From Squalus acanthias (lineage: Eukaryota), in contig CM059449.1 of NCBI GenBank assembly GCA_030390025.1, positions 13,888,001 through 13,952,000 of the forward strand: 64,000 nt of DNA, in the 5' to 3' direction. Position 1 is the stretch's first letter, and each line of letters starts with the position of its first letter. The notes below the pieces were generated by a model, which ran no database searches, had not been told where the DNA came from, and was given only the letters and a program-made list of their open reading frames with translations. Positions 4,665 through 33,309 of the stretch are shown here, one piece after another. A program made the translations under genes and the position numbers.

Positions 4665-4722
4665 ATGCTGTTTACTCAACAGCTCGCCTTAATGCAGCTG
4701 ATTCTCTTTGCAACATGCACGG
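4665..4722 (+). CDS. copy A leader (signal peptide) exon
   Basis: ATG at 4665, 19 mostly hydrophobic codons, donor G|GTGAGT in phase 1; mirrored at 33252-33309. Confidence 0.8.
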
Positions 4723-7700
4723 GTGAGTTAATTGGTTTGTGACCGTTACGGATAAAGTCCACGGGCTGGAGAACAGGGTCGATTTAAATTCTACCTTTTG
4801 CAGAAACTGGACTTTTTTTTCAGCTTCGAATTGGAAATTATTTAATTTGAGGTAACCACAACAAACGCTAATGGGTGCTGTCTGTTAACATGTTTTATTT
4901 CTGCAATTTACTTACAATTGTCGCACTAACTATGAAAAACCGGTGCAACTGTGCTTAGCACCGGTCCATCCTCCTCTAAGCACAGTTACAGTATGTTCTA
5001 GACTTGAGCGCATATGGGGCAAAATTTCCACCAGGTTCTTCCGATCTCCCGCCGTAGCTTTAGAATCATAGAATCATGGAAATGTTACAGCACAGAAGGA
5101 GGCCATTCGGCCCATCGAGCCCGTGCCGGCTCTCTGCAAGAGAACTTCAGCTAGTCCCACTCTCCCGCCCTTTCCCCGTAGCCCTGCATTTGTTTTCCTT
5201 CAGGTACTTATCCAATTCCCTTTTGAAAGCCAGGACTGAGTCTGCCTCCACCTCCCTTTCAGGCAGTGCATTCCAGATCCTAACCACTCGCTGCGTAAAT
5301 ATTTTTTTCCTCATGTCGCCTTTGGTTCTTTTGCAAATCACCTTAAATCTGTGTCCTCTGGTTCTCGAACCTTCCGCCAACGGGAACAGTTTCTCTTTAT
5401 CTGCTCTGTCCAGACCCTTCATGAATTTGAACAGCTCTATCAAATCACCTCTCAACCTTCTCTGCTCTAAGGAGAACAACCCCAGCTTCTCCAATCTATC
5501 CACGTAACTGAAGTTCCTCATCCCTGGAACCATTCTTGTAAATCTTTTCTGCACCCTCGCTAAGGCCTTCACAACCTTCCTGAAGTGCGGTGCCCAGAAT
5601 TGGACACAATACTCCAGTTGTGGCCGAATCAGTGTTTTATAAAGGTTCATCATAACTTCCTTGCTTTTGTACTCAATGCCTCTACTTATGAAGCCCAGGA
5701 TCCCGCATGCTTTTTTAACCCCTGTCTTAACCTGCCCTGCCACCTTCAATGCTGGTGGAAGATCGGCTGTATTTATTTTCCCGCCGAAGTTACGACGGGA
5801 GATGGAGAAATTCCAGGCGAAACTCTTGATTCGATTTAAGCCGTCTGTGGAAGGTTTCTGGCAGCAAGCGACTGCTCCACCTGCTTTCATAACAATCGTG
5901 GTTGCTCTCCAGAAAGTAACTGAAAGCACTTTGATATGTTTCGACGATAAGACAGGGCGCTGTACAAATTCAGCTTTTTTTCTTTATCAATGCAAGTGTG
6001 ATTATTATTGCATAATCTGATTTTTTTATTCATTCACGGGATGTGGGCGGCGCTGACACTTGTGTGGCGCGAATGTTACTTGCCACTTGATCAGCCCAAG
6101 CCTGGAATATGCCGAGGTCTTGCTGCACGCGGGCAGGGACTGCTTCATTATCTGGGGAGCTGCGAATGGAACTGAACACCGTGCAATCAACAGCCAACAT
6201 CCCCACAATATGAGTCTTTTCCTTGAGATGCTCCACAAAATGTTCTCGCCAAACCAGGATCTTTCTCCCAATCCGGTTGATTGCATCCGAATAACGGCCA
6301 CTTCTCAGTCTCAGAACAAGTCGTTCATCTTCCGCGTTGTTCAGACTCCAAATTAAAATAATAATGTTGTTCTACTTCCTGTAGCTATCTTACTGTTTGT
6401 CGCCCTTTTCCTCGTCCTTTCTTATCCTCTCCCCTTTCCTTCCCTCTGCCTTGTTCTTTCTCTCCTGCTATCCCTTTCTCAATACCACGCTCTGATCCTC
6501 AACCACCTTCTCTCATTGGCGTCTCAGCATTCGCTCTGATTCCTTTTTCTCGGCCCTTCACTCTGCTTCTGTCCATTGCACTTTTCTGTTCTCCTGTCTG
6601 TCTGACTCACAACACTCTCTCCTTGTCCCGCTTTGGTAGAAAGCAACTGCAATTATAAAATAGCTGCTGAATGAATGAGGACAATGAAACCATGGATGTC
6701 ATATGTCTCAGGTAATCGATCTGCCATCGCATTGTATTAGTTCAGCTCTTGATTTTTTGCGGCTGGCGTGTAATCCCCGCTGCTGAGTGACGCTGGGCAA
6801 GTGGTAGTGGAGGCAGCGAGGCGGAGCAGGACAACCAAGCATTAGGCTGTCTTTCCCTTTCCGACCCTGGCTGACTTTCTACATATTTGTACCACTTTCT
6901 GTGTGTGTATATAGTGTGCTTCACGGTTCCAGTGTTCGCTGCTTTACTTTTTATCTCTGTATCTGTATCATGTGGAATGAGAATTACCTTTACCGACAAA
7001 AATGCCGATCAATGTTAGACAGGTGTGGATTTTAGTACTTATCTGCTTTACCTTTCAGCATCTGGGACGAGGAATTTCACCGTTTACCAGTTTCCTCCCT
7101 TTATAAATGCGACAGAGGGGGAGTCGGTGACACTGAACTGTGCCATGGCTTCTGAAGGAAACCTATCTCCGATCGGCTCAGCTCATTGGACACGGGGTAA
7201 ACCAAATGGGTACAAACTGGACGATAGCCCGTTTTACAGCGGACGGCTGCAGAAAGCGGACAGCGAGTCGTTTGCCAAAAATAGAATTTTCATTAAAATC
7301 TCCAACTTGACTGAGAAAGACTCAGACACCTATTACTGCCGGATAACCTTAATGGGATTAGGATCGACAGACGGAAATGGCACCAAATTGGAAGTGAGAC
7401 GTAAGTAGCAACTGAAAAAATAATCGTGTACAAAGCACATGTTCTAATATTCTATTCACACAGAGCAGGGCGATCCTTGGTTCAATTTCAGGACTGTGAT
7501 TGGCTAGCTGACCCCAGCATACTGGACACCGGGGATGGGGAATACCATCTCAACTCGCTCCTCCTCCTCATTCACAAATCTTTTCCTCCTGGAAGTTGCT
7601 TGTACTGCTGTGGACATCAGGGGATGAAATTGGACGCACAACAGACGGTTTTGCGTCGGCTGCCTATTGTCCCGCTTGCCGGATATTCCGTTCCATTCAA

Positions 7701-9060
7701 GTCAGTGAAAATGAATATGGGGCTGAGCATATAACAGGTGTCCGATGCGATACCGCCTGTGTTACCATCACGCCCTTGCCCAATTTGTCTACTTTTTTAA
7801 TATTTGTTCCGGGATGTGGGCCAGCATTTATTGCCCATCCCTAATTGTCCTTGAGAAGGTGGGGGTGAGCCGCCTTCTTGAACCGCTGCAGTCTGCGCAG
7901 TGAAGGCGCTCCCACAGTGCTGTTAGGGAGGGAGTTCCAGGATTTTGACCAAGCGACGATGAAGGAACGGCCGATATATTTCCAAGTCAGGAAGGTGTGT
8001 GTGACTTGGAGGGGAACTTGGAGGTGGTGGTGTTCCCATGCGCCTGCTACCCTTGTCCCTCTAGGTGGTAGAGGTTGCGGGTTTGGGAGGTGCTGCCGAA
8101 GAAGCCTTGGCTGAGCAGGGTTGTGATGCCGCTCCGAGTCAAATAGCTAATCACACCCTCTGGGCACAACGTTGAAGAATCGCCATTAAAATGATATGTC
8201 GGGAGCTCAGTGCAATGAGAACATGGCACAAAATCAATAGAAGTTGAGGGAAGCTTCTTGACATTGTCCTTATTATCATTGAAGTGCCAATAGTAGCACA
8301 ATAGCATAGCATTAATTCTCTTTCCATTGTAATACTCTTTTTAACAATCACGCTATTTGTTTTAATGCAAGCAAAATCGTTTTTCCTCAGCGTCTTCAGA
8401 TTTAGATTTAATAATACTAACATCAACTCCTTATTTCAGGCAGAATGCAGAATGAAAAGAGAGAAGGTGTTATGCTGGGACTTGTACTGAGAGGTGCGCT
8501 GGCGTTGCTGGGTATAATCATCATAATTCTGATCTGGCAAAACAAAGGTCTGTATCTTTACAAAACACACTGGTAACCTGTTTAAATATTACACTTTCAC
8601 TATAGTGCGGGGGAATTACTCTGGCCACTATGGGTAGCAATATAATGAATGCTTTCGTGGAGCGAGTCAACTATTCCAGTGCAATCGGAATCGGGTTATT
8701 ATGAACAACTATTTTAGGACACCCTTACGATTTCACCAGAAATAATAAAAGGAGGAAATATCCATAATCCATTGTATTACCGATGCACATATTGTCCAGA
8801 ATAACTTCCCATCCTCGCTATTTATTTATGTATCAAAGGTCAATTCTACAACATTTTAAGAAGAAATAGCATCACAATGTCATTATTTTACAACAATAAT
8901 ATTAATTTTCTTCATTTCCTTTCAGTTATCCAGAGGCTGAAAGGTACGGGGAATGTTAACTCCTATAGAATTGATAATTACTGAGGACATACTGTGCATA
9001 ATTTTAAATTCAAATATCATCTCGCTTATTACAGAAATCACAGTGAAGCCAATACAATAG
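4665..9060 (+). CDS. NCR3: NKp30/NCR3-like Ig V-set receptor, copy A (activating-type: TM Arg, short tail). Exons 4665-4722, 7059-7400, 8440-8547, 8926-8943, 9035-9060; ~183 aa
   Basis: GT-AG phase-1 junctions join leader MLFTQQLALMQLILFATCT, a V domain (C..W..YYC..GNGTKLEV), TM VMLGLVLRGALALLGIIIIILIW and tail QNKVIQRLKEITVKPIQ*. The V domain resembles human NKp30 (IGSxxW, F/YxGRL, CRxxxxGLGxxxGNGTxLxV). Exact orthology is untested. Confidence 0.75.
5016..5826. mobile_element. MITE-like inverted-repeat element interrupted by a minus-strand CR1 3' fragment (~5062-5750), in intron 1 of copy A
   Basis: 5025-5060 is an imperfect reverse complement of ~5787-5822; CR1 motifs in ORF 5147-5929. Confidence 0.6.
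7059..7400 (+). CDS. copy A VJ-type Ig V-set exon
   Basis: Acceptor ctttcag, donor C|GTAAGT; canonical Cys/Trp/DxxxYYC and a J-like GNGTKLEV in one exon. Confidence 0.92.
7795..8112 (-). mobile_element. L2/Crack-like LINE 3' end (mirror ~30368-30690)
   Basis: Shared 3' UTR with other copies (gggcaataaatgctggc..cacatccc). Confidence 0.7.
8440..8547 (+). CDS. copy A stalk/transmembrane exon with intramembrane Arg
   Basis: ttatttcag acceptor; translates RRMQNEKREGVMLGLVLRGALALLGIIIIILIWQNK; phase 1/1. Confidence 0.85.
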
Positions 9061-9193
9061 ATGGTAAGGGAGCTTTAATTGCATTAAGTTACATTGATCA
9101 TTGTTGCTGGATAATTAAAACAAACTAAATATAAAAATACATTTGCACATTATTTTATTCATAATCATTTGAGTTCCAGTCAGGTTCGACTGA

Positions 9194-9797: not shown

Positions 9798-9959
9798 GCA
9801 TTGTGTAATTCTGACACATTCTCTATCATTGTCTCTCCTCTCATTTTCACAGCAAGTGCCGATCTACAGCCAACAACACAAGTAAGAACTATCAGATGAT
9901 GAGATGTTTTATATGTGCAATGACAGATGGTTCAGGTGTACAATAAGGCTACGGTAATT

Positions 9960-12480: not shown

Positions 12481-13404
12481 ATAAATATGCAAATTGGTGA
12501 TGTTGTATTTATATGCATTGGGAATTAAAACTAATTTTAATCCGATTGAGATAATTATTATGTACATTTCAATCGTGGCAGTGTTGAGGCTGTTTCCCTG
12601 CAATACGCCAAAGTGAACACAAAGAAAATGGGGACGACGAGGAGAATGGACATGCAGCTACATCATGTGGAGTACGCTACCATCAGATGAAGCTGTGAGA
12701 AGAAATCTGAAAGCCTCAAAACCCTGATCCTACATATGCCTACTCCTGCCACTAACAGAACAAGAGCAATTTTAAACAATATCCAGCACACCGACCGCCT
12801 TGCTCTTATTACTCTGCCAATAAGTTTGTGACATGTTAACTGTGAATGTGTGTAAATCTGCAGCTGTTCCTAATTTCCCAGTTGTCGAATATTCTGCTGT
12901 TTCAGTTAAGCACCCTGTAGAGGCTATGTGTCTCTTAGCAACTATTAGAAAATTGAATCTTCCTTATCATTAACACAAAATATGGTTTCCAGCTTGACAA
13001 ACTGAAGAAGGTGGGAAAAGAGGTCCTTCTGGGTCACTGTGTGTAGCGACACTAAAATGAAAATTGCATTACGTGGGTATTTCTTGTGAAATTATAAAAG
13101 CGTTCTTAAAAATGTGTTTGCTGTTTTCCTAGAAATAGGAATGAAGAAATATTCTCAGTGTGTTTAAATTGTCGATAACAGATGGTTGTCAGGAAAAAAT
13201 GTATCCCAAAATGTAAATATGCTACTTACTTTTAACAGGTTCCAGTTTGTTATGAACATTAAAATACTTGATCTTCTTAGCTGTGTTCCAGATTTATAAT
13301 AGCTCTTCGCACAAGTGTGCGTCACAAATATTTCAATTTTGCACTTGATATTTTCGTAGATTCAATGTCACCAGTCACTTCTATAAGTGGACTGAGGGTC
13401 CCCT

Positions 13405-25743: not shown

Positions 25744-25852
25744 TCATCTGATGGTGGCGTACTCCACATGATGTACCTGCATGTCCATTCTACTCGTCTT
25801 CCCCTCTTGCTTTGTGTTCACTTTGGCATAATGCAGGGAAACTGCCTCATCA
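25744..25852 (-). CDS. copy B terminal exon with ITIM (LHYAKV) and ITSM-like motif (VEYATI)
   Basis: Acceptor gtggcag preceded by an AG-free stretch with an actaat branch-like motif; open to TGA in both copies. Confidence 0.75.
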
Positions 25853-28612
25853 CTGCCACAATTGGAATGTACATAATAATTATCGCAGACGGATTAAAAT
25901 TAGTTTTAATTCCCAATACATATCAATACAACACCAGCAATTTGCAAGGCACTTGAGCTATGAGTAATCAGAAAAAGCATGCAGAGTTAAACCTAGATGT
26001 TGGAGATACAGTCTGACAGCATAAGGAGGGGTCGAGATAGGTAGTGGATGAGTAGAGCTGTAATTGGCATAAATATGGAAGCTGAATGCATAGATTCGAT
26101 GATGCCAACTCGGAGAAGGATAGAGACGAGGGAGCAAAGGATGGATCCTTTGGAGAATCCCAAGCTAACGGCTGTGGGTGGAAAAAGATACCATTGCTGG
26201 AGATGCTCTGGTTAAAATTAGATGCATTATTGTACAGCTAAGCAAGAGCAGTGCCATGGAGTTGAGCAATAGATAAGAGACATTGGAGGAGTATCGTGTG
26301 GTTGGTGTTTCAAAGTTTACAGAGAGGTCAAGCAGAACGAGGATGGATAACATACCATGGCCACAGTAGCAGAGAATGCTACTTGTGACTTTGGTCAGGG
26401 TCGTCTCAATGTTGTGGCAGAGGCAGAAACCTGATCTGAAGGGGAATGGGTACATATCTGGGAGGCGACAGCACTCTAAGGACCTTGGAGGGGAAAGGAA
26501 GGTTCAAGATGGGACATTACCTGGATAGGACAGACAGATCAAAGATACACTGCAGCAACTCACCAAGGCTTATTCAATAGCATCTCCCAAATCCGTGACA
26601 AGGGCAGTAGGCGCGTGGGAACAGCACCACCTCCAAGTTCGCCTCCAAGTCACACACCAACCTGACTTGGAAATATATCGCTGTTCCTTCATCATCGCTG
26701 GACCAAAACACTGGAACTCCCTACCTAACAGCACTGTGGGAATGCCTTCACCACATCGACTGCAGCGGTTCAGAAGGCAGCATCTCACCCCCACCTTCTC
26801 AAGGACAATTAGGAATGGGCAATAAATGCTGGCCTTGCCAGCGACGCCCACATACTGTGAATGAATAAAAAAGTGCGGGATCTTGAAAACGGGTAAAGGC
26901 AGCAGCTTTGAAAGGCAGGGCGACAGCCCCTGTGTAAATTAAGCCATTCACAATATTGGCCGTTGGGTGATCAGGAGTTTGATGGGAAAGAGGGTCAAGG
27001 GAACAGAAAGTAGGTCTCATGGATGAGATAAATTTGGAGGGAGTTTGAGGAAAAGGGCAGAAACTAGTGAGAATCCAGGTTTCAGGGCAATGATGGCGAC
27101 AGGACTGGGGGACATTTGTCTTAGTGGACAAGGGGAAGACAGGAGCAGCGAGGCAGCTGAACAGATGGTCTCTATCTTCGAGAGGAAGAAATGCGTGAGT
27201 TCCTCGCACTGGTTGTTAGAGATGGGAGAGGAGGCGGTGGTCAAAGTTGTTTAAGGTAGTAGAGAAAAGGAGCCTGCAGTTTTCTCTACCTTCCAGGATG
27301 ATCCGAGAGTAGCGGATGGTTTCTGCAGAGGAAAGCGAAGCCTGCAAGAGATTAATGCGGCAAGCCAGATCTGGGAATGGGTGGCTTATCCGGTTGAGTG
27401 CCCCTTGGACATAAAGAAACGAAGATGGGGCTCATACTAGGGGGATCAACTGGAATGAGATATTGTTACGATTGTACTGGGAAGAAGGGCACCAAATGCT
27501 GTCCATTGTGGGCATCCAGTCTTTCTGGGTCAGCTATAGTATAATAGGCTGCAAGGTGAATTTTCCTCTACGCTGCTTGTACAACGGCTCTACACACAAA
27601 GATCAGAAAAATGTCCCTTAACACTCCATTTCTGAACTTTTCTACTCTCGCACCTTATGACCTTTGTGACTGAGATTACCAAGTTAATACCAAATTGTGG
27701 TTTCATTGAGACGGTTTTGTTGCTGTGGTTCAATATCCTTTGGGATGTTATGAACCCTTACAACCAACATAGAGAGAAGCCTTTCAGCTCATCAGTCTGG
27801 GATGGCGTTGAATACAGGTCATAATGCTGGTGGCACCGCATCCCCTTAAACACAACTTTTAATGGTTATTACCTCTGGTTTCATTTTACAGGCAATTATA
27901 AGCACATCCCTAAAACATACGTAACAGGGGATAACCTTCACAAGCACATATAAGATATTGAAAATACGTAGAGAAAAGAACAATTCCATCACCGTTGATA
28001 GCAGTTGGCGATTTTTTTTTATTCATTCACGAGACGTGGACAGCGCCGACAAGGCAAGCATTTATTGTTCATCCCTAATTGCTCTCGAGAAGGTGGTGGT
28101 GAGCCACTTTCTTGAATACAACCGAGTGCTTGGGAGGTCATCTTAGAGGGCAGTTAAGAGTCAAACATATTGCTGTGGGTCTGGAGTGACATAGGCGAGA
28201 CATCCTTTCCTAAAGTACATTAGTGAACCAAAAGGGTTCTTCTGACAATCCAGTATTTTCATGGTCACCATGACTGATACTAGCTTCTTTCTTCCAGATT
28301 TAATTAATGCTTTTGAATTCAACTTCCTCGATTGCCATGGTGGGATTTGAATTCATGTCTGCATGGATTATTAGCCCATGTCTTCTAAATTACTAGTCCA
28401 GTAACATAACCAATATGCTACCGTACCCAATTACTGGAGCCTTATTGTACACCTGAGCCATTTGTCATTGCACATATAAAATATCTCATCATCTGATAGT
28501 TCTTACTTGTGTTGTTGGCTGTAGATCGGCATTTGCTGTGAAAAAGAGAGGGGAGACAATGATAGAGAATGTGTCAGAATTACACAATGCAAAACACATA
28601 CACACACACACA

Positions 28613-28644
<32 letters not shown>

Positions 28645-31600
28645 TACATAAACACTTACACACAATTACAAACATCCATACTCACAGACACATGCACACA
28701 CACATTCAAATATTTTTTTTAATCCGTTTTATGAGATGTGGGCGTCGCTGGCAAAGCCAGCATTTATTCCCCATCCCTAATTGCCGTTGAGAAGGTGGTG
28801 GTGAGCCGCCTTCTTGAACCGTTGCAGTCCGTGTGGTGAAGGTACTCCCACAGTGCTGTTAGGTAGAGAATTCCAGGATTCTGACCCAGCGACGATGAAG
28901 GATCGGCGATAAACTTCAAAGTCAGGATGCTGTGTGACTTGGAGGGGAACTTGGAGGTCGTAGTGTTCCCATGCGTCTGCTGCCCTTGTCCTTCTAGGTA
29001 GTAGAGTTCGTGGGTTTGGGAGGTGCTGCTGAACAAGCCTTCACGAGTTGCTGCAGTGCATCTTGTAGATGGTACACACGGCAGCCACAGTGCGCCAGTG
29101 GTGGAGGGAATGAATGTTTAAGGTGGTGGATGGGATGCCAATCAAGCTGGCTGCTTTGGCCTGGATGGTGTCGAGCTTCTTGAGTGTTTTTGGAGCTGCA
29201 CTCATCCAGGCAAGTGGAGAGTATTCCATCACACTCCTGACTTGTGCCTTGTAGATGGTGGCACACACACATACACACGCACACATCAGTAGAACCTGAC
29301 TGGAAATCAAATGATTTTGAATAAAATAACTTGTAAATGTACTTTTATATTCAGTTTGTTTTAATTAACCAGTAATAATGATAAATGTAAATTAATGCAA
29401 TTCAAGCTCCCTTACCATATATTGGATTGGCTTCACTTTGATTTCTGTAATAAGCGAGATGATATTTGAATTAAAAATTATACACATTATGTTCTGAATA
29501 ATCATCAATTCTATAGAAGTTAACATTCCCCGTACCTTTTCAGTCTCAGGATAACTGAAAGGAAAAGAAGAAAATTAATATTATTGTTGTAAAATAATGA
29601 CTTTGTGAAGCTATTTCTCGTTAAAATGTCAAAGAATTGCCCGTTGAAACATTAATGCATAGCGAGGATGGGAAGTTATTCTGGACAATATGTGCATTGG
29701 TATCATAATGTATTATGGAAATTTCCTCCTTTTATTATTTCTGGTGAAATCGTAAGGGTTGTTCATAATAACCCGATTCCGATTGCACTGGAATATTTGA
29801 CTCGCTCCATGAAACCATTCACTATATTGCTACCCATAGTGGCCAGAGTAATTCCCCCGCACTATAGCAAAAGTGTAATATTTAAACAGGTTACCAGTGT
29901 GTTTTGTAAAGATACAGACCTTTGTTTTGCCAGATCAGTCGAATTGTAAGAATTATGATGGTTGTAGCCAGCAACACCAGCGCACCTCCCAGTACAAGTC
30001 TCAGCTTAATACCCTCTCTCTTTTCATTATGTATTCTGCCTGAAATAAGGAGTTGAAGTCAGTATTATTAAATCTAAATCTGAAGACGCTGAGGAAAAAC
30101 GATTTTGCTTGCATTAAAACAAATAGCATGATTGTAAAAAAAAAAGTATTACAATGGAAAGAGAATGATTGCTAGGCTATTGTGCAACTATTGGCACTTC
30201 AATGATAAAAAGGACAATGTCAAGAAGCTTCTCTCAACCTCTATTGATTTTGTGCCATGTTCTCATTGCACTGAGATCCCGATATATCATTTTAATGGCG
30301 ATTCTTCAACGTTGAGCCAAGAGGGTGTGATTGGATATTTGACTCTACGCGGCATCACAACCCTGCTCAGCCAAGGCCCCATCGGCAGCACCTCCCAAAC
30401 CCGCAACCTCTACCACCTAGAGGGACAAGGGTAGCAGGCGCATGGGAACATCACCACCTCCAAGTTCCCCTCCAAGTCACACACACCTTCCTGACTTGGA
30501 AATACATCGGCCATTCCTTCATCGTCGCTGGGTCAAAATCCTGGAACTCCCTCCCTAACAGCACTGTGGGAGCACCTTCACCGCGCGGACTGCAGCAGTT
30601 CAAGAAGGCGGCTCACCACCACCTTCTCAAGGACAATTAGGGATGGGCAATAAATGCTGGCCCACATCCCGGAACAAATATTAAAAAAGGTAGACACTTT
30701 GTGCATGCGCTGGATGGCAGCACAGGCGGTATCGCATCGGTCACCTGTTATAGGCTCAGCCCCATATTCATTTCCACTGACTTGAATGGAACGGAATATC
30801 TGTCAAGCGGTACAACGGGCAGCTGACGCAAATCCGCCTGTTCTGCGTCCAATTTCATCCCCTGATGCCCACAGCAGAACAAGCAACTTCCAGGAGGAAA
30901 AGATTTGTGAATGAGGAGGAGGAGCGAGTTGAGATGGTATTCCCCATCCCCGGTGTCCAGTATGCTGGGGTCAGCTAGCCAATCACAGTCCTGAAATTGA
31001 TCCAAGGATCGCCCTGCTCTGTGTGAATAGAAAATTAGAACACGTGCTTTGGAAACGATTATTTTTTAAGTTGCTACTTACGTCTCACTTCCAATTTGGT
31101 GCCATTTCCGTCTGTCGCTCCTACTCCCATTAAGGTTATCCGGCAGTAATAGGTGTCTGAGTCTTTCTCAGTCAAGTTGGAGATTTTAATGAAAATTCTA
31201 TTGTTGGCAAATGACTCGCGATCCGATCTCTGAAGCCGTCCTCTGTAAAACGGACTATCGTCCAGTTTGTACCCATTTGGTTTACCCCGTGTCCAATGAG
31301 CTGAGCCCATCGGAGATAGGTTTCCTTCAGAAGCCACGGCACAGTTCAGTGTCACTGACTCCCCCTCTGTCGCATTTATAAAGGGAGGGAGCTGGTAAAC
31401 GGCGATATTCCTCGTCCCACCTGCTGAAAGGTAAAGCGGATAAGTACTAAAATCCACACCTGTCTAACATTGATCGGCATTTTTGTCGGTAAAGGTAATT
31501 CTCATTCCACATGATATAGAAACAGAGATAAAACGTAAAGCAGCGAACACTGGAACCGTGAAACACACTAACTACACACACAGAAAGTGCTACAAATATA

Positions 31601-33309
31601 TAGCAAGTCAGCCAGGGTTGGAAAGGGAAAGACAGGCTAATGCTTGGTTGTCCTGCTCCGCCTCGCTGCCTCCACTACCACTTGCCCAGCGTCACTCAGC
31701 AGCGGGGATTACCCGCCAGCCGCAAAAAATCAAGAGCTGAACTAATACAATGCGATGGCAGATCGATTACCTGCGATCGATTACCTGAGCCATACGACAT
31801 CCATAGTTTCATTGTCCTCTTTCATTCAGCAGCTGTTTTCTAATTGCAGTTGCTTTCGACCAAAGCGGGACAAGGAGAGAGATTGTGAGTCAGACAGACA
31901 GGAGAACAGAAAAGAGCAATGGACAGAAGCAGAGTGAAGGGCCGAGAAAAGGAATTGGAGCGAATGCTGAGACGCCAATGAGAGAAGGTGGTTGAGGATC
32001 AGAGCGTGGAATTGAGAAAGGGATAGCAGGAGAGAAAGAACAAGGCAGAGGGAAGGAAAGGGGAGATAAACGGGGGGAAAGCAGTGAGATAGCTAGAGGA
32101 AGTAGTACAACATTATTATTTTAATTTGGAGTTTGAACAACGCGGAAGATGAATGATTTGTTCTGAGACTGAGAAGTGGCCGTTATTCGGATGCAATCAA
32201 CCGGATCGGGCGAAAGATCCTGGTTTAGCGAGAACATTTTGTGGAGCATCTCAAGGAAAAGGCTCATATTGTGAGGATGTTGGCTGATGACTGCACGGTG
32301 TTCAGTTCAATTCGCAGCTCCCCAGATAATGAAGCAGCCCCTGCCCGCCTGCAGCAAGACCCGGGCATAATGCAGGCTTGGGCTGATAAGTGGCAAGTAA
32401 CATTCGCGCCACACAAGTGTCAGCGCCGCCCACATCCCGTGAATGAATAAAAAATTCCGATTACGCAATAATAATCACACTCGCATTGATAAAGAAAAAA
32501 AAGCTGAATTTGTATGCGCCCTGTCTTATCGTCGAAACATATCAAAGTGCTTTCAGTTACTTTCTGGAGAGCAACCATTATTGTTATGAAAGCATTGGCG
32601 GAAGGATCGAAAACCAGAGGACAGCGATTTAAGCTGATTGGCAAAAAAAACAAAGGCGACATGAGGAAAAACGTTTTTACACAGTGAGTGGTTAGGATCT
32701 GGAATGTACTGCCTGAAAGGGAGGTGGAGGCAGATTAAATCGTAGCTTTTAAAAGTGAATTGGATAAGTACCTGAAGGAAAAAAAGTGCTGGGCTATGGG
32801 AAAAGGGCGCGGGAGTGGGACAAGCTGAAGTGCTCTTACAGAGGGCCGGCACGGGCTCTGCGGACCGAATGGCCTCCTTCTGTGCTGTAACCATTCAATG
32901 ATTCTATGATTCTAAAGATACGGCGGGAGATCGGGAGAACCTGGCGGAAATGTTGCCCCATATGCGCTCAAGTCTAGAACATACTGTAACTGTGCTTAGA
33001 GGAGGATGGACCGGTGCTAAGCACAGTTTCACCGCTATTTCATGGTTTTTGCGAAAATTGTAACTAAGTTGCAGAAATAAAACATGTTAACAGACAGCAC
33101 CCATTAGCGTTTTTTGTGGTTACCTCAAATTAAATAATTTCCAATTCGAAGCTGAAAAAAAAGTCCAATTTCTGCAAAAGGTAGAATTTAAATCGACCCT
33201 GTTCTCTAGCCTGTGACTTTATCCGTAACGGTCACAAACCAATTAACTCACCCGTGCATGTTGCAAAGAGAATCAGCTGCATTAAGGCGAGCTGTTGAGT
33301 TAACAGCAT
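25744..33309 (-). CDS. NCR3: NKp30/NCR3-like receptor, copy B (inhibitory-type). Exons 33309-33252, 31423-31082, 30039-29920, 29554-29536, 29444-29416, 28535-28507, 27909-27890, 27756-27691, 25852-25744; ~263 aa
   Basis: 792-nt spliced ORF. Tail reads QNKVILRLKRNQSEANPIYANADLQPTTQGCAYNCLVHNIPKDIEPQQQNRLNETTICDEAVSLHYAKVNTKQEGKTSRMDMQVHHVEYATIR*. The 20-nt exon (donor CT|GTAAAA) and the 66-nt exon are the least certain. Confidence 0.68.
29920..30039 (-). CDS. copy B stalk/TM exon
   Basis: RRIHNEKREGIKLRLVLGGALVLLATTIIILTIRLIWQNK; 12 nt longer than copy A. Confidence 0.85.
31082..31423 (-). CDS. copy B VJ-type Ig V-set exon
   Basis: Within ORF 31074-31457; 13 aa differences from copy A over ~114 aa; same splice sites. 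Confidence 0.92.

What the first reader, a model, noticed from the sequence alone, without database searches (positions are those of the whole stretch)
8926..9063. One-nucleotide switch in an A-run micro-exon truncates copy A, and skipping the next exon would restore its ITIMs
Seen: the micro-exon ends CTGAAAG|GT (18 nt) in A but CTGAAAAG|GT (19 nt, 29536-29554) in B. In the next exon a single T/G difference turns B's Tyr codon (PIY) into GAT and creates the TAG in A's shifted frame. Skipping the 29-nt exon 9035-9063 returns A to B's frame, giving TM Arg plus LQYAKV and VEYATI, and all downstream exons of A remain open. Established: KIR2DL4 combines a TM Arg with an ITIM and has 9A/10A frameshift alleles. 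Inference: splicing could toggle A between activating and dual-signalling forms. The truncated form could instead be an NMD target because several introns follow the stop.
Basis: partly seen in the sequence, partly recalled or inferred. Interest (0 to 1): 0.72.

Follow-up and report, generated by a model that had tools for sequence, protein, structure and literature searches.

The report
Shark NKp30-like copy loses its brake
One of five neighbouring copies of a shark immune-receptor gene related to human NKp30 has gained an arginine in its membrane anchor and has its inhibitory tail cut off by a one-letter deletion, so it likely works as a fixed 'on' partner of its 'off' sister genes rather than as a splice-controlled switch.

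Summary
The 18 vs 19 nt micro-exon and the TAG are real. The gene is a shark NCR3/NKp30-like receptor with five close copies. Only copy A has the 18-nt exon and the TM Arg.

The proposed toggle fails as stated. The ITIM exon's ancestral acceptor (AG, intact in copies C, D, E and at the same codon in a distant paralogue) reads AT in A and B (12560-12561). Skipping 9035-9063 therefore gives ITIMs only if a second, cryptic GAG at 12589 is also used. NMD is not predicted: the stop lies 32 nt before the last junction.

A's Ig exon has 1 private change; its TM exon has 6 amino-acid changes plus a 12-nt deletion; its ITIM exon has 8. This fits a young activating paired receptor derived from an inhibitory one. 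Annotated isoforms in two other sharks skip the 19-nt exon and enter the same frame, so A likely hard-wires an older splice option.

No RNA and no reads of copy A were found, so expression and an A-run assembly error remain untested. The scan noted this family before, 1.2 Mb away (e1-9319235).

The parts
4665..4722 (+). Copy A leader exon (58 nt, phase 1)
   Evidence: Best match to leaders of four shark homologues; GT donor; joins the Ig exon in frame
7059..7400 (+). Copy A VJ-type Ig exon, intact
   Evidence: Pfam V-set; best single-domain PDB hits are human NKp30; 69% to nurse shark NCR3 P0002; 1 private change
8440..8547 (+). Copy A stalk/TM exon, remodelled: 6 private amino-acid changes and a 12-nt deletion
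8490..8492 (+). TM Arg codon (AGA; GGA in copies B-E)
   Evidence: Gly at this place in all 10 orthologue proteins of alignment A1
8926..8943 (+). Micro-exon m1, 18 nt in A (three A), 19 nt (four A) in B-E
9035..9063 (+). 29-nt exon m2; TAG at 9058-9060 ends A's protein
   Evidence: the G at 9060 is shared with C and D
9853..9881 (+). 29-nt exon m3, ends in phase 0 of the ancestral frame; 3' UTR in A
12549..12550 (+). New AG private to A, 11 nt upstream of the ancestral acceptor and 16 nt below a branch-like motif (A at 12534)
   Evidence: C at 12549 in all four public runs laid; use not shown
12560..12561 (+). Lost acceptor of the ITIM exon (AT in A and B, AG in C, D, E)
   Evidence: same acceptor codon in a distant paralogue L014 and in homologue proteins
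12562..12690 (+). Ancestral last exon with two ITIM-like motifs (12598-12615, 12667-12684); cryptic AG starts at 12582 (out of frame) and 12589 (in frame)
13258..13263 (+). ATTAAA, likely poly(A) signal, present in 5 of 5 copies
33252..33309 (-). Copy B leader exon
31082..31423 (-). Copy B Ig exon
29920..30039 (-). Copy B stalk/TM exon, Gly where A has Arg
29536..29554 (-). Copy B micro-exon m1, 19 nt
29416..29444 (-). Copy B exon m2 with the Tyr codon
28507..28535 (-). Copy B exon m3
25744..25874 (-). Copy B ITIM exon, acceptor also AT (25874-25873)

Best explanation
Copy A is a shark NCR3/NKp30-like gene with a transmembrane arginine and a frameshifted, tyrosine-free tail, and it is likely a young activating paired receptor derived from an ITIM-bearing ancestor. 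Shown: Gly>Arg plus five more TM changes and a 4-residue deletion keep a 21-23 residue hydrophobic stretch with Arg in its N-terminal third. Shown: loss of one A from the 19-nt micro-exon puts the next exon in the -1 frame whether the micro-exon is spliced in or not, a TAG shared with C and D ends the protein 17 residues after the TM Trp, and the ITIM exon has lost its acceptor. Inferred: the mRNA escapes NMD, the protein pairs through the Arg with FcR-gamma or CD3-zeta and activates, and the ITIM exon is now 3' UTR and drifting. Inferred: in 19-nt copies skipping of the micro-exon is an older ITIM-off splice option, which A has fixed in its DNA.
For: A alone among 5 copies has Arg and the 18-nt exon; all 10 orthologue proteins aligned have Gly there, so Arg is derived. 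Private changes in A, nonsynonymous/synonymous: Ig 1/0 in 113 codons, TM 6/0, last exon 8/2; the other four copies have 1-2 nonsynonymous changes each in TM and last exon. TM excess over A's non-coding rate p=0.006, Ig vs TM Fisher p=0.0005 (post hoc). A is 3.5-6.1% from the others in the Ig exon, 10-12% in TM and last exon, the pattern described for paired receptors (PMC3210942 abstract). Stop is 32 nt from the last junction (rule in PMC1854916 passages). Annotated isoforms P0007 (horn shark) and P0013 (catshark) lack the micro-exon peptide and read on in A's frame without ITIMs. Among 85 of 150 distant hits with a scored TM, 27 have a TM charge without ITIM, 32 an ITIM without charge, 2 both, 24 neither; named examples are nurse shark NCR3 P0076 and catshark P0020. 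The genome holds two zeta-family adaptor TM exons with the Asp.
Against: No transcript or protein evidence for A. No public contig laid carried A's private bases, so the 3-A state rests on one assembly. pN/pS near 1 is not diagnostic here: the Ig exon also gives 0.66-2.18 between copies, and B-E gives 1.30 in the last exon. The A vs B difference in the last exon is not significant (p=0.10). Low Ig divergence may be gene conversion, not selection (p=0.065 against the local non-coding rate). Both ITIM cores are still intact in A. The isoforms of other sharks are database gene models whose DNA and RNA support I did not see. The NMD rule comes from mammals.
Confidence: 0.62

Rival explanations
1. 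A is a decaying copy: the frameshift, acceptor loss and TM changes are drift, and the Ig exon is kept similar by gene conversion.
For: Two lesions in the tail; 10 private changes in 126 nt of the last exon, above A's non-coding rate; absent from the runs laid; broken Ig fragments lie in the same cluster.
Against: Leader, Ig, TM and all splice sites up to m3 are intact. All 6 TM substitutions are nonsynonymous yet keep the hydrophobic stretch (Kyte-Doolittle 2.7) and put Arg where family members carry it. The stop is predicted to escape NMD.
Confidence: 0.16
2. Splicing toggles A between activating and dual (Arg plus two ITIMs) forms, by other junctions than the first reader named: m2 skip plus the GAG at 12589, or skipping m2 and m3 onto A's new GAG at 12551.
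For: Both routes are open and reach both ITIMs. A gained the AG at 12549-12550. KIR2DL4 9A and NKp44-1 are precedents. A horn shark NCR3-like model has TM Arg with tyrosine motifs (P0022).
Against: Needs two non-default choices or a double skip; 4 of 12 m2-free combinations are in frame, which is chance. The m2 donor is identical in all copies. The first AG after the lost site (CAG, 12582) is out of frame. A's ITIM exon has the most private amino-acid changes.
Confidence: 0.12
3. The missing A is a homopolymer error of the assembly or a rare allele, and A really has the 19-nt exon.
For: It is a 4-to-3 A-run change seen in one assembly; every contig covering the site in X1, X3 and X4 has four A.
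Against: Those contigs also lack A's neighbouring private bases (8878, 8914, 8976-8992, 9088), so they are not copy A. A is shorter in 0 of 16 comparable runs and has 3 private 1-nt deletions in non-coding DNA against 3, 2, 0, 2 for B-E. Even with 19 nt, A would need the GAG at 12589 to reach its ITIMs.
Confidence: 0.07
4. The deletion once compensated for the acceptor loss: with all exons and the CAG at 12582, A is in phase with the ITIMs and only the TAG blocks it, so readthrough or a T allele at 9060 would give Arg plus ITIMs.
For: Phase match shown; A is a mosaic of B-like and C/D-like bases in m2.
Against: A 1-in-3 coincidence; no evidence of readthrough; A's own GAG at 12551 comes first after the branch-like motif.
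Confidence: 0.03

Closest known systems
Shark NCR3 (NKp30) family, ITIM-tailed subtype: nurse shark QTT61901.1 (P0002), horn shark XP_067865596-600 (P0001, P0005-7)
   Same: Single VJ Ig domain at 68-69% identity, same TM end and the same exon-coded tail in copies B-E.
   Different: These have Gly, not Arg, in the TM and keep the long tail; here the subtype has expanded to five copies and one has switched design.
Human NKp30 (NCR3)
   Same: IgV domain (E about 1e-10), TM Arg pairing with CD3-zeta/FcR-gamma, no ITIM, tails varied by splicing (PMC6514059 passages).
   Different: A's Arg is a new point change in a Gly-bearing shark subfamily, so likely convergent. B7-H6 binding not tested.
Activating paired receptors derived from inhibitory ones (KIR-S, Ly49, PIR, NKG2)
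   Same: Similar ectodomain, charged TM, lost ITIMs, divergence confined to the signalling exons (PMC3210942 abstract). Recurrent origin from inhibitory genes (Abi-Rached and Parham 2005) is recalled, not read.
   Different: Unrelated or distant families in mammals; here truncation is by a micro-exon frameshift plus acceptor loss.
KIR2DL4 9A/10A and NKp44-1/2/3
   Same: An A-run at an exon end sets whether the ITIM is read; splicing can restore the frame in 9A; NKp44 isoforms differ by an ITIM.
   Different: 9A/10A are alleles of one gene with a 9-10 A run at the end of the TM exon; here it is a 3-4 A run in a cytoplasmic micro-exon differing between paralogues, with a second lock at the last acceptor.

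Membership tests
NCR3/NKp30 family | Non-rearranging VJ-type IgV domain in one exon | tested here: met
   342-nt exon with V-set match and J-like end
NCR3/NKp30 family | Closest named proteins are NCR3 | tested here: met
   68-69% to shark NCR3-named records; best single-domain PDB hits NKp30, after one multi-domain diabody
NCR3/NKp30 family | Linkage to the MHC | not tested
   No search made
NCR3/NKp30 family | Binds B7-H6 | not testable with these tools
   Needs a binding assay
Activating paired receptor | Basic residue in the TM helix | tested here: met
   Arg inside the best 19-23 residue hydrophobic window of A, none at that place in B-E
Activating paired receptor | Short tail without tyrosine motifs | tested here: met
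   17 residues, no Tyr, under default splicing; rests on one assembly
Activating paired receptor | Linked ITIM-bearing partner with similar ectodomain | tested here: met
   C, D, E keep the acceptor and at least one ITIM; Ig 86-92% identical
Activating paired receptor | Expression, adaptor binding and activation | not testable with these tools
   Adaptor-like exons exist in the genome; function untested
KIR2DL4-type 9A/10A switch | A-run length differs between alleles of one gene | tested here: inconclusive
   Here it differs between paralogues; no second haplotype of A was found
KIR2DL4-type 9A/10A switch | One alternative splice event restores the ITIM | tested here: not met
   The proposed 8943>9853 skip needs a second cryptic acceptor; intron retention hits a stop; no frame-restoring GT in the m1-m2 intron. 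8943>12551 remains open but unobserved.
EJC-dependent NMD target | Stop more than 50-55 nt above the last junction | tested here: not met
   32 nt; last exon likely terminal; a 3' UTR intron was not excluded

The most novel reading that the evidence does not exclude
The tail micro-exons of this shark NKp30 subfamily form a frame code that sets inhibitory versus silent tails by splicing, and the AG>AT loss rewired it: in B the switch is inverted (skipping the 19-nt exon onto the CAG now gives the ITIMs), and in A a newly made acceptor lets one double-exon skip (8943>12551) yield an Arg-plus-two-ITIM receptor beside the activating form. The cluster would then show the birth of an activating NKp30 from an inhibitory gene with a live dual-signalling intermediate.
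Probability: 0.12. Interest if true: 0.62.

Novelty: new member of a known kind. Interest (0 to 1): 0.36.

Why it matters
Activating NK-type receptors are thought to arise again and again from inhibitory ones. This cluster gives a recent, step-by-step case in a shark, in the NKp30 family itself: one point change puts Arg in the membrane, one base loss and one splice-site loss remove the ITIMs, and four near-identical sisters show the starting state. It is a good test system for paired receptors in cartilaginous fish. The design is known, Arg- or Lys-bearing short-tailed NCR3 genes already exist in sharks, and no function is shown, so the surprise is modest.

Tried and rejected
RNA evidence: no RNA holder listed; the one guessed-RNA run laid (X16) gave 0 contigs; no evidence either way. 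Reads of copy A: X1, X3, X4 (X1 and X4 are one sample) and X7, X10 carry none of A's listed private bases (29 and 40 table rows were not shown), so they neither confirm nor refute three A. Other frame-restoring events near m1: intron retention has a stop in all five copies; 2 other GT sites in the m1-m2 intron do not restore frame; an internal AG at 8934 (10-nt exon) would, but still needs the GAG at 12589. An extra exon between 9882 and 12561 was considered and dropped because homologue proteins run straight from m3 into the last exon; I did not enumerate candidates. An early idea that the block 12520-12557 shared by A and B is a conversion tract was dropped: X7 and X10 show A's bases there, so it is ancestral. 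Papers on shark NCR3 (Kinlein 2021, Flajnik 2012) are not held. No structure or complex prediction was run: it would not decide a splicing question. No splice-strength model was available; AG sites were compared by position, -3 base and pyrimidine count only.

Full report
What the locus is. The window holds two inverted copies of one gene, A on the + strand and B on the - strand, about 90% alike over 8 kb. The Ig exon matches Pfam V-set; its best single-domain PDB hits are human NKp30, behind one multi-domain diabody; its closest named proteins are shark NCR3-like records at 61-69% identity. The own genome has five copies with the full tail: A, B, and C, D, E fetched as L007, L008, L009/L010. 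They lie in a large cluster: 75 of 76 Ig matches are on the same contig. The gene has seven exons: leader, Ig, TM, m1 (18/19 nt), m2 (29), m3 (29), last.

The observation. m1 is 18 nt in A and 19 nt in B, C, D and E. A reads on in the -1 frame and stops at TAG 9058-9060, 17 residues after the TM Trp, with no Tyr. The G at 9060 is shared with C and D, so it is not tied to the deletion. The TM Arg (8490) is private to A; B-E and all 10 orthologue proteins aligned have Gly. Skipping m2 does return m3 to the ancestral frame.

Homologue proteins run from m3 directly into a V/A-H/Y-S-N-R/H-G-S peptide. In C, D and E that peptide begins right after an AG; in A and B the same place reads AT (A 12560-12561, B 25874-25873). 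A distant paralogue (L014) has its AG at the same codon. In public contigs the G is at depth 20.5 of 20.5 (X3), 25.2 of 25.2 (X7), 21.2 of 31.9 (X1) and 29 of 42.2 (X10); X1 also holds a contig with B's 35-nt deletion whose depth (10.8) matches the non-G rest, so the AT state likely exists outside this assembly (40 rows not shown, so the letter in the third X10 contig is not seen). The remaining AGs in A give exon starts at 12551 (new, private GAG), 12582 (CAG) and 12589 (GAG). After an m2 skip only 12589 reaches the ITIMs; 12582 stops after one residue and 12551 reads an ITIM-less frame. Of 24 exon/acceptor combinations in A, 12 include m2 and stop at the TAG, and 4 of the other 12 reach the ITIM frame, which is chance. 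m2's donor is identical in all five copies. So the toggle as proposed needs two non-default choices. A one-event route remains on paper: skipping m2 and m3 onto 12551.

NMD. Two introns follow the stop and the last junction is 32 nt downstream. The mammalian rule needs more than 50-55 nt (PMC1854916, passages). An ATTAAA at 13258 is present in 5 of 5 copies, so the ITIM exon is likely terminal; a UTR intron or EJC-independent decay is not excluded.

Pattern of change. Private nonsynonymous/synonymous changes in A: Ig 1/0 (113 codons), TM 6/0 plus a 12-nt deletion, last exon 8/2 (42 codons). In B-E: Ig 6/2, 11/1, 7/1, 2/2; TM 1/0, 1/0, 2/0, 2/2; last exon 2/0, 1/1, 1/1, 2/0. A's private non-coding rate is 140 of 6226 columns; D and E are inflated by insertions. 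Against that rate the TM excess has p=0.006, the Ig deficit p=0.004 (0.065 with the local rate); these are post hoc. Last-exon pN/pS is 0.74-1.49 for A against the others and 0.17-1.30 among B-E, but the Ig exon also gives 0.66-2.18 and A vs B in the last exon has p=0.10, so this test only leans. An open frame with both ITIM patterns survives 10 random changes in 30% of simulations. A's TM stays hydrophobic, with Arg in the N-terminal third of the best window. A is 3.5-6.1% from its sisters in the Ig exon and 10-12% in the TM and last exon.

Family context. Database isoforms from horn shark (P0007) and catshark (P0013) lack the m1 peptide and continue in the frame A uses, without ITIMs; a sevengill isoform (P0010) loses them by another route. 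This reading rests on protein sequences of gene models; I saw neither their DNA nor their RNA support. Because 18 is a multiple of three, A is in that frame with or without m1. A profile search returned 150 hits; 18 had no J motif, 47 no TM by a crude rule, and of 85 scored 27 had a TM charge and no ITIM, 32 an ITIM and no charge, 2 both, 24 neither. These are related sequences, mostly unnamed, so the Fisher p of 5e-6 overstates independence. Of 10 looked up by name, nurse shark NCR3 P0076 has a TM Lys and a 3-residue tail, catshark P0020 a TM Arg and short tail, and horn shark P0022 a TM Arg with tyrosine motifs. The genome has two PF11628 matches whose TM exons carry the Asp; calling them CD3-zeta and FcR-gamma is from recall of the human motifs.

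Is the deletion real? Every contig over the site in X1, X3 and X4 has four A (3, 1 and 3 contigs), but at A's neighbouring private positions those runs show only the other base, so they do not hold copy A. A is shorter in 0 of 16 comparable homopolymers and shows no excess of 1-nt deletions. An error is unlikely but untested.

Mechanism. Shown: Arg in the TM, frameshift, early stop, lost acceptor. Inferred: stable mRNA, pairing with an ITAM adaptor as for human NKp30 (PMC6514059, passages), activating function beside ITIM-bearing C, D and E, and drift of the ITIM exon. I put this at 0.62, a decaying copy at 0.16, a splice toggle by other junctions at 0.12, an assembly error at 0.07 and a blocked compensatory frameshift at 0.03.

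Comparison with what is known. It works like activating paired receptors, whose ligand domains stay similar to an inhibitory partner (PMC3210942, abstract and outline). KIR2DL4 9A is a real precedent for splice rescue of an A-run frameshift (PMC6288254, passages), and NKp44-1 for a charged TM with an ITIM isoform, but A fails the single-event rescue test. Three searches listed no paper on this locus by title or abstract start; the two main shark NCR3 papers are not held, so prior description of the subtype cannot be excluded. PMC12272517, PMC12227049, PMC10450919, PMC4536121 and PMC2832619 were seen as passages only and add only references and background. No supplements were read.

Verdict. 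A real sequence difference with a partly wrong reading: a new member of a known kind, interest 0.36.

Noticed in passing
window 25874-25873 (-), copy B: B has also lost the ITIM-exon acceptor. With the next CAG its normal transcript would stop right after m3, leaving a tail with one Tyr in an N-P-I-Y-A-N context (PTB/Grb2-type motifs, recalled); skipping m1 would then reach the ITIMs. Yet B's last exon has only 2 private changes, so it may use the in-frame GAG.
   Followed up: partly
L007:7956-8084, L008:9160-9288: C and D lost the m2 tyrosine; D also lost the first ITIM tyrosine (Tyr>Cys). The five copies differ in their tyrosine motifs.
   Followed up: partly
L007:2433-2774: Copy C's Ig exon has 11 private nonsynonymous and 1 synonymous change, mostly in residues 94-111; conversion from another family member or diversifying selection.
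   Followed up: no
L011:8955-9435 (-): A sixth gene has an Ig exon 82% identical to A's but no match to A's TM or tail exons; a candidate unrelated TM exon lies about 3.3 kb downstream. Looks like an ectodomain shared with a different tail.
   Followed up: partly
window 41640-41900 (+): Broken Ig-like exon with stops and frameshifts; similar fragments at three other places in the cluster, likely part of the duplicated unit.
   Followed up: partly
window 6671-6712 (+) and from 31825 (-): Match to the alternative first exon of a horn shark isoform (P0001); whether it is used here is unknown.
   Followed up: no
G000:C26:13.47-17.14 Mb: 75 NCR3-like Ig exon matches on this contig, a large expansion of the family.
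   Followed up: no
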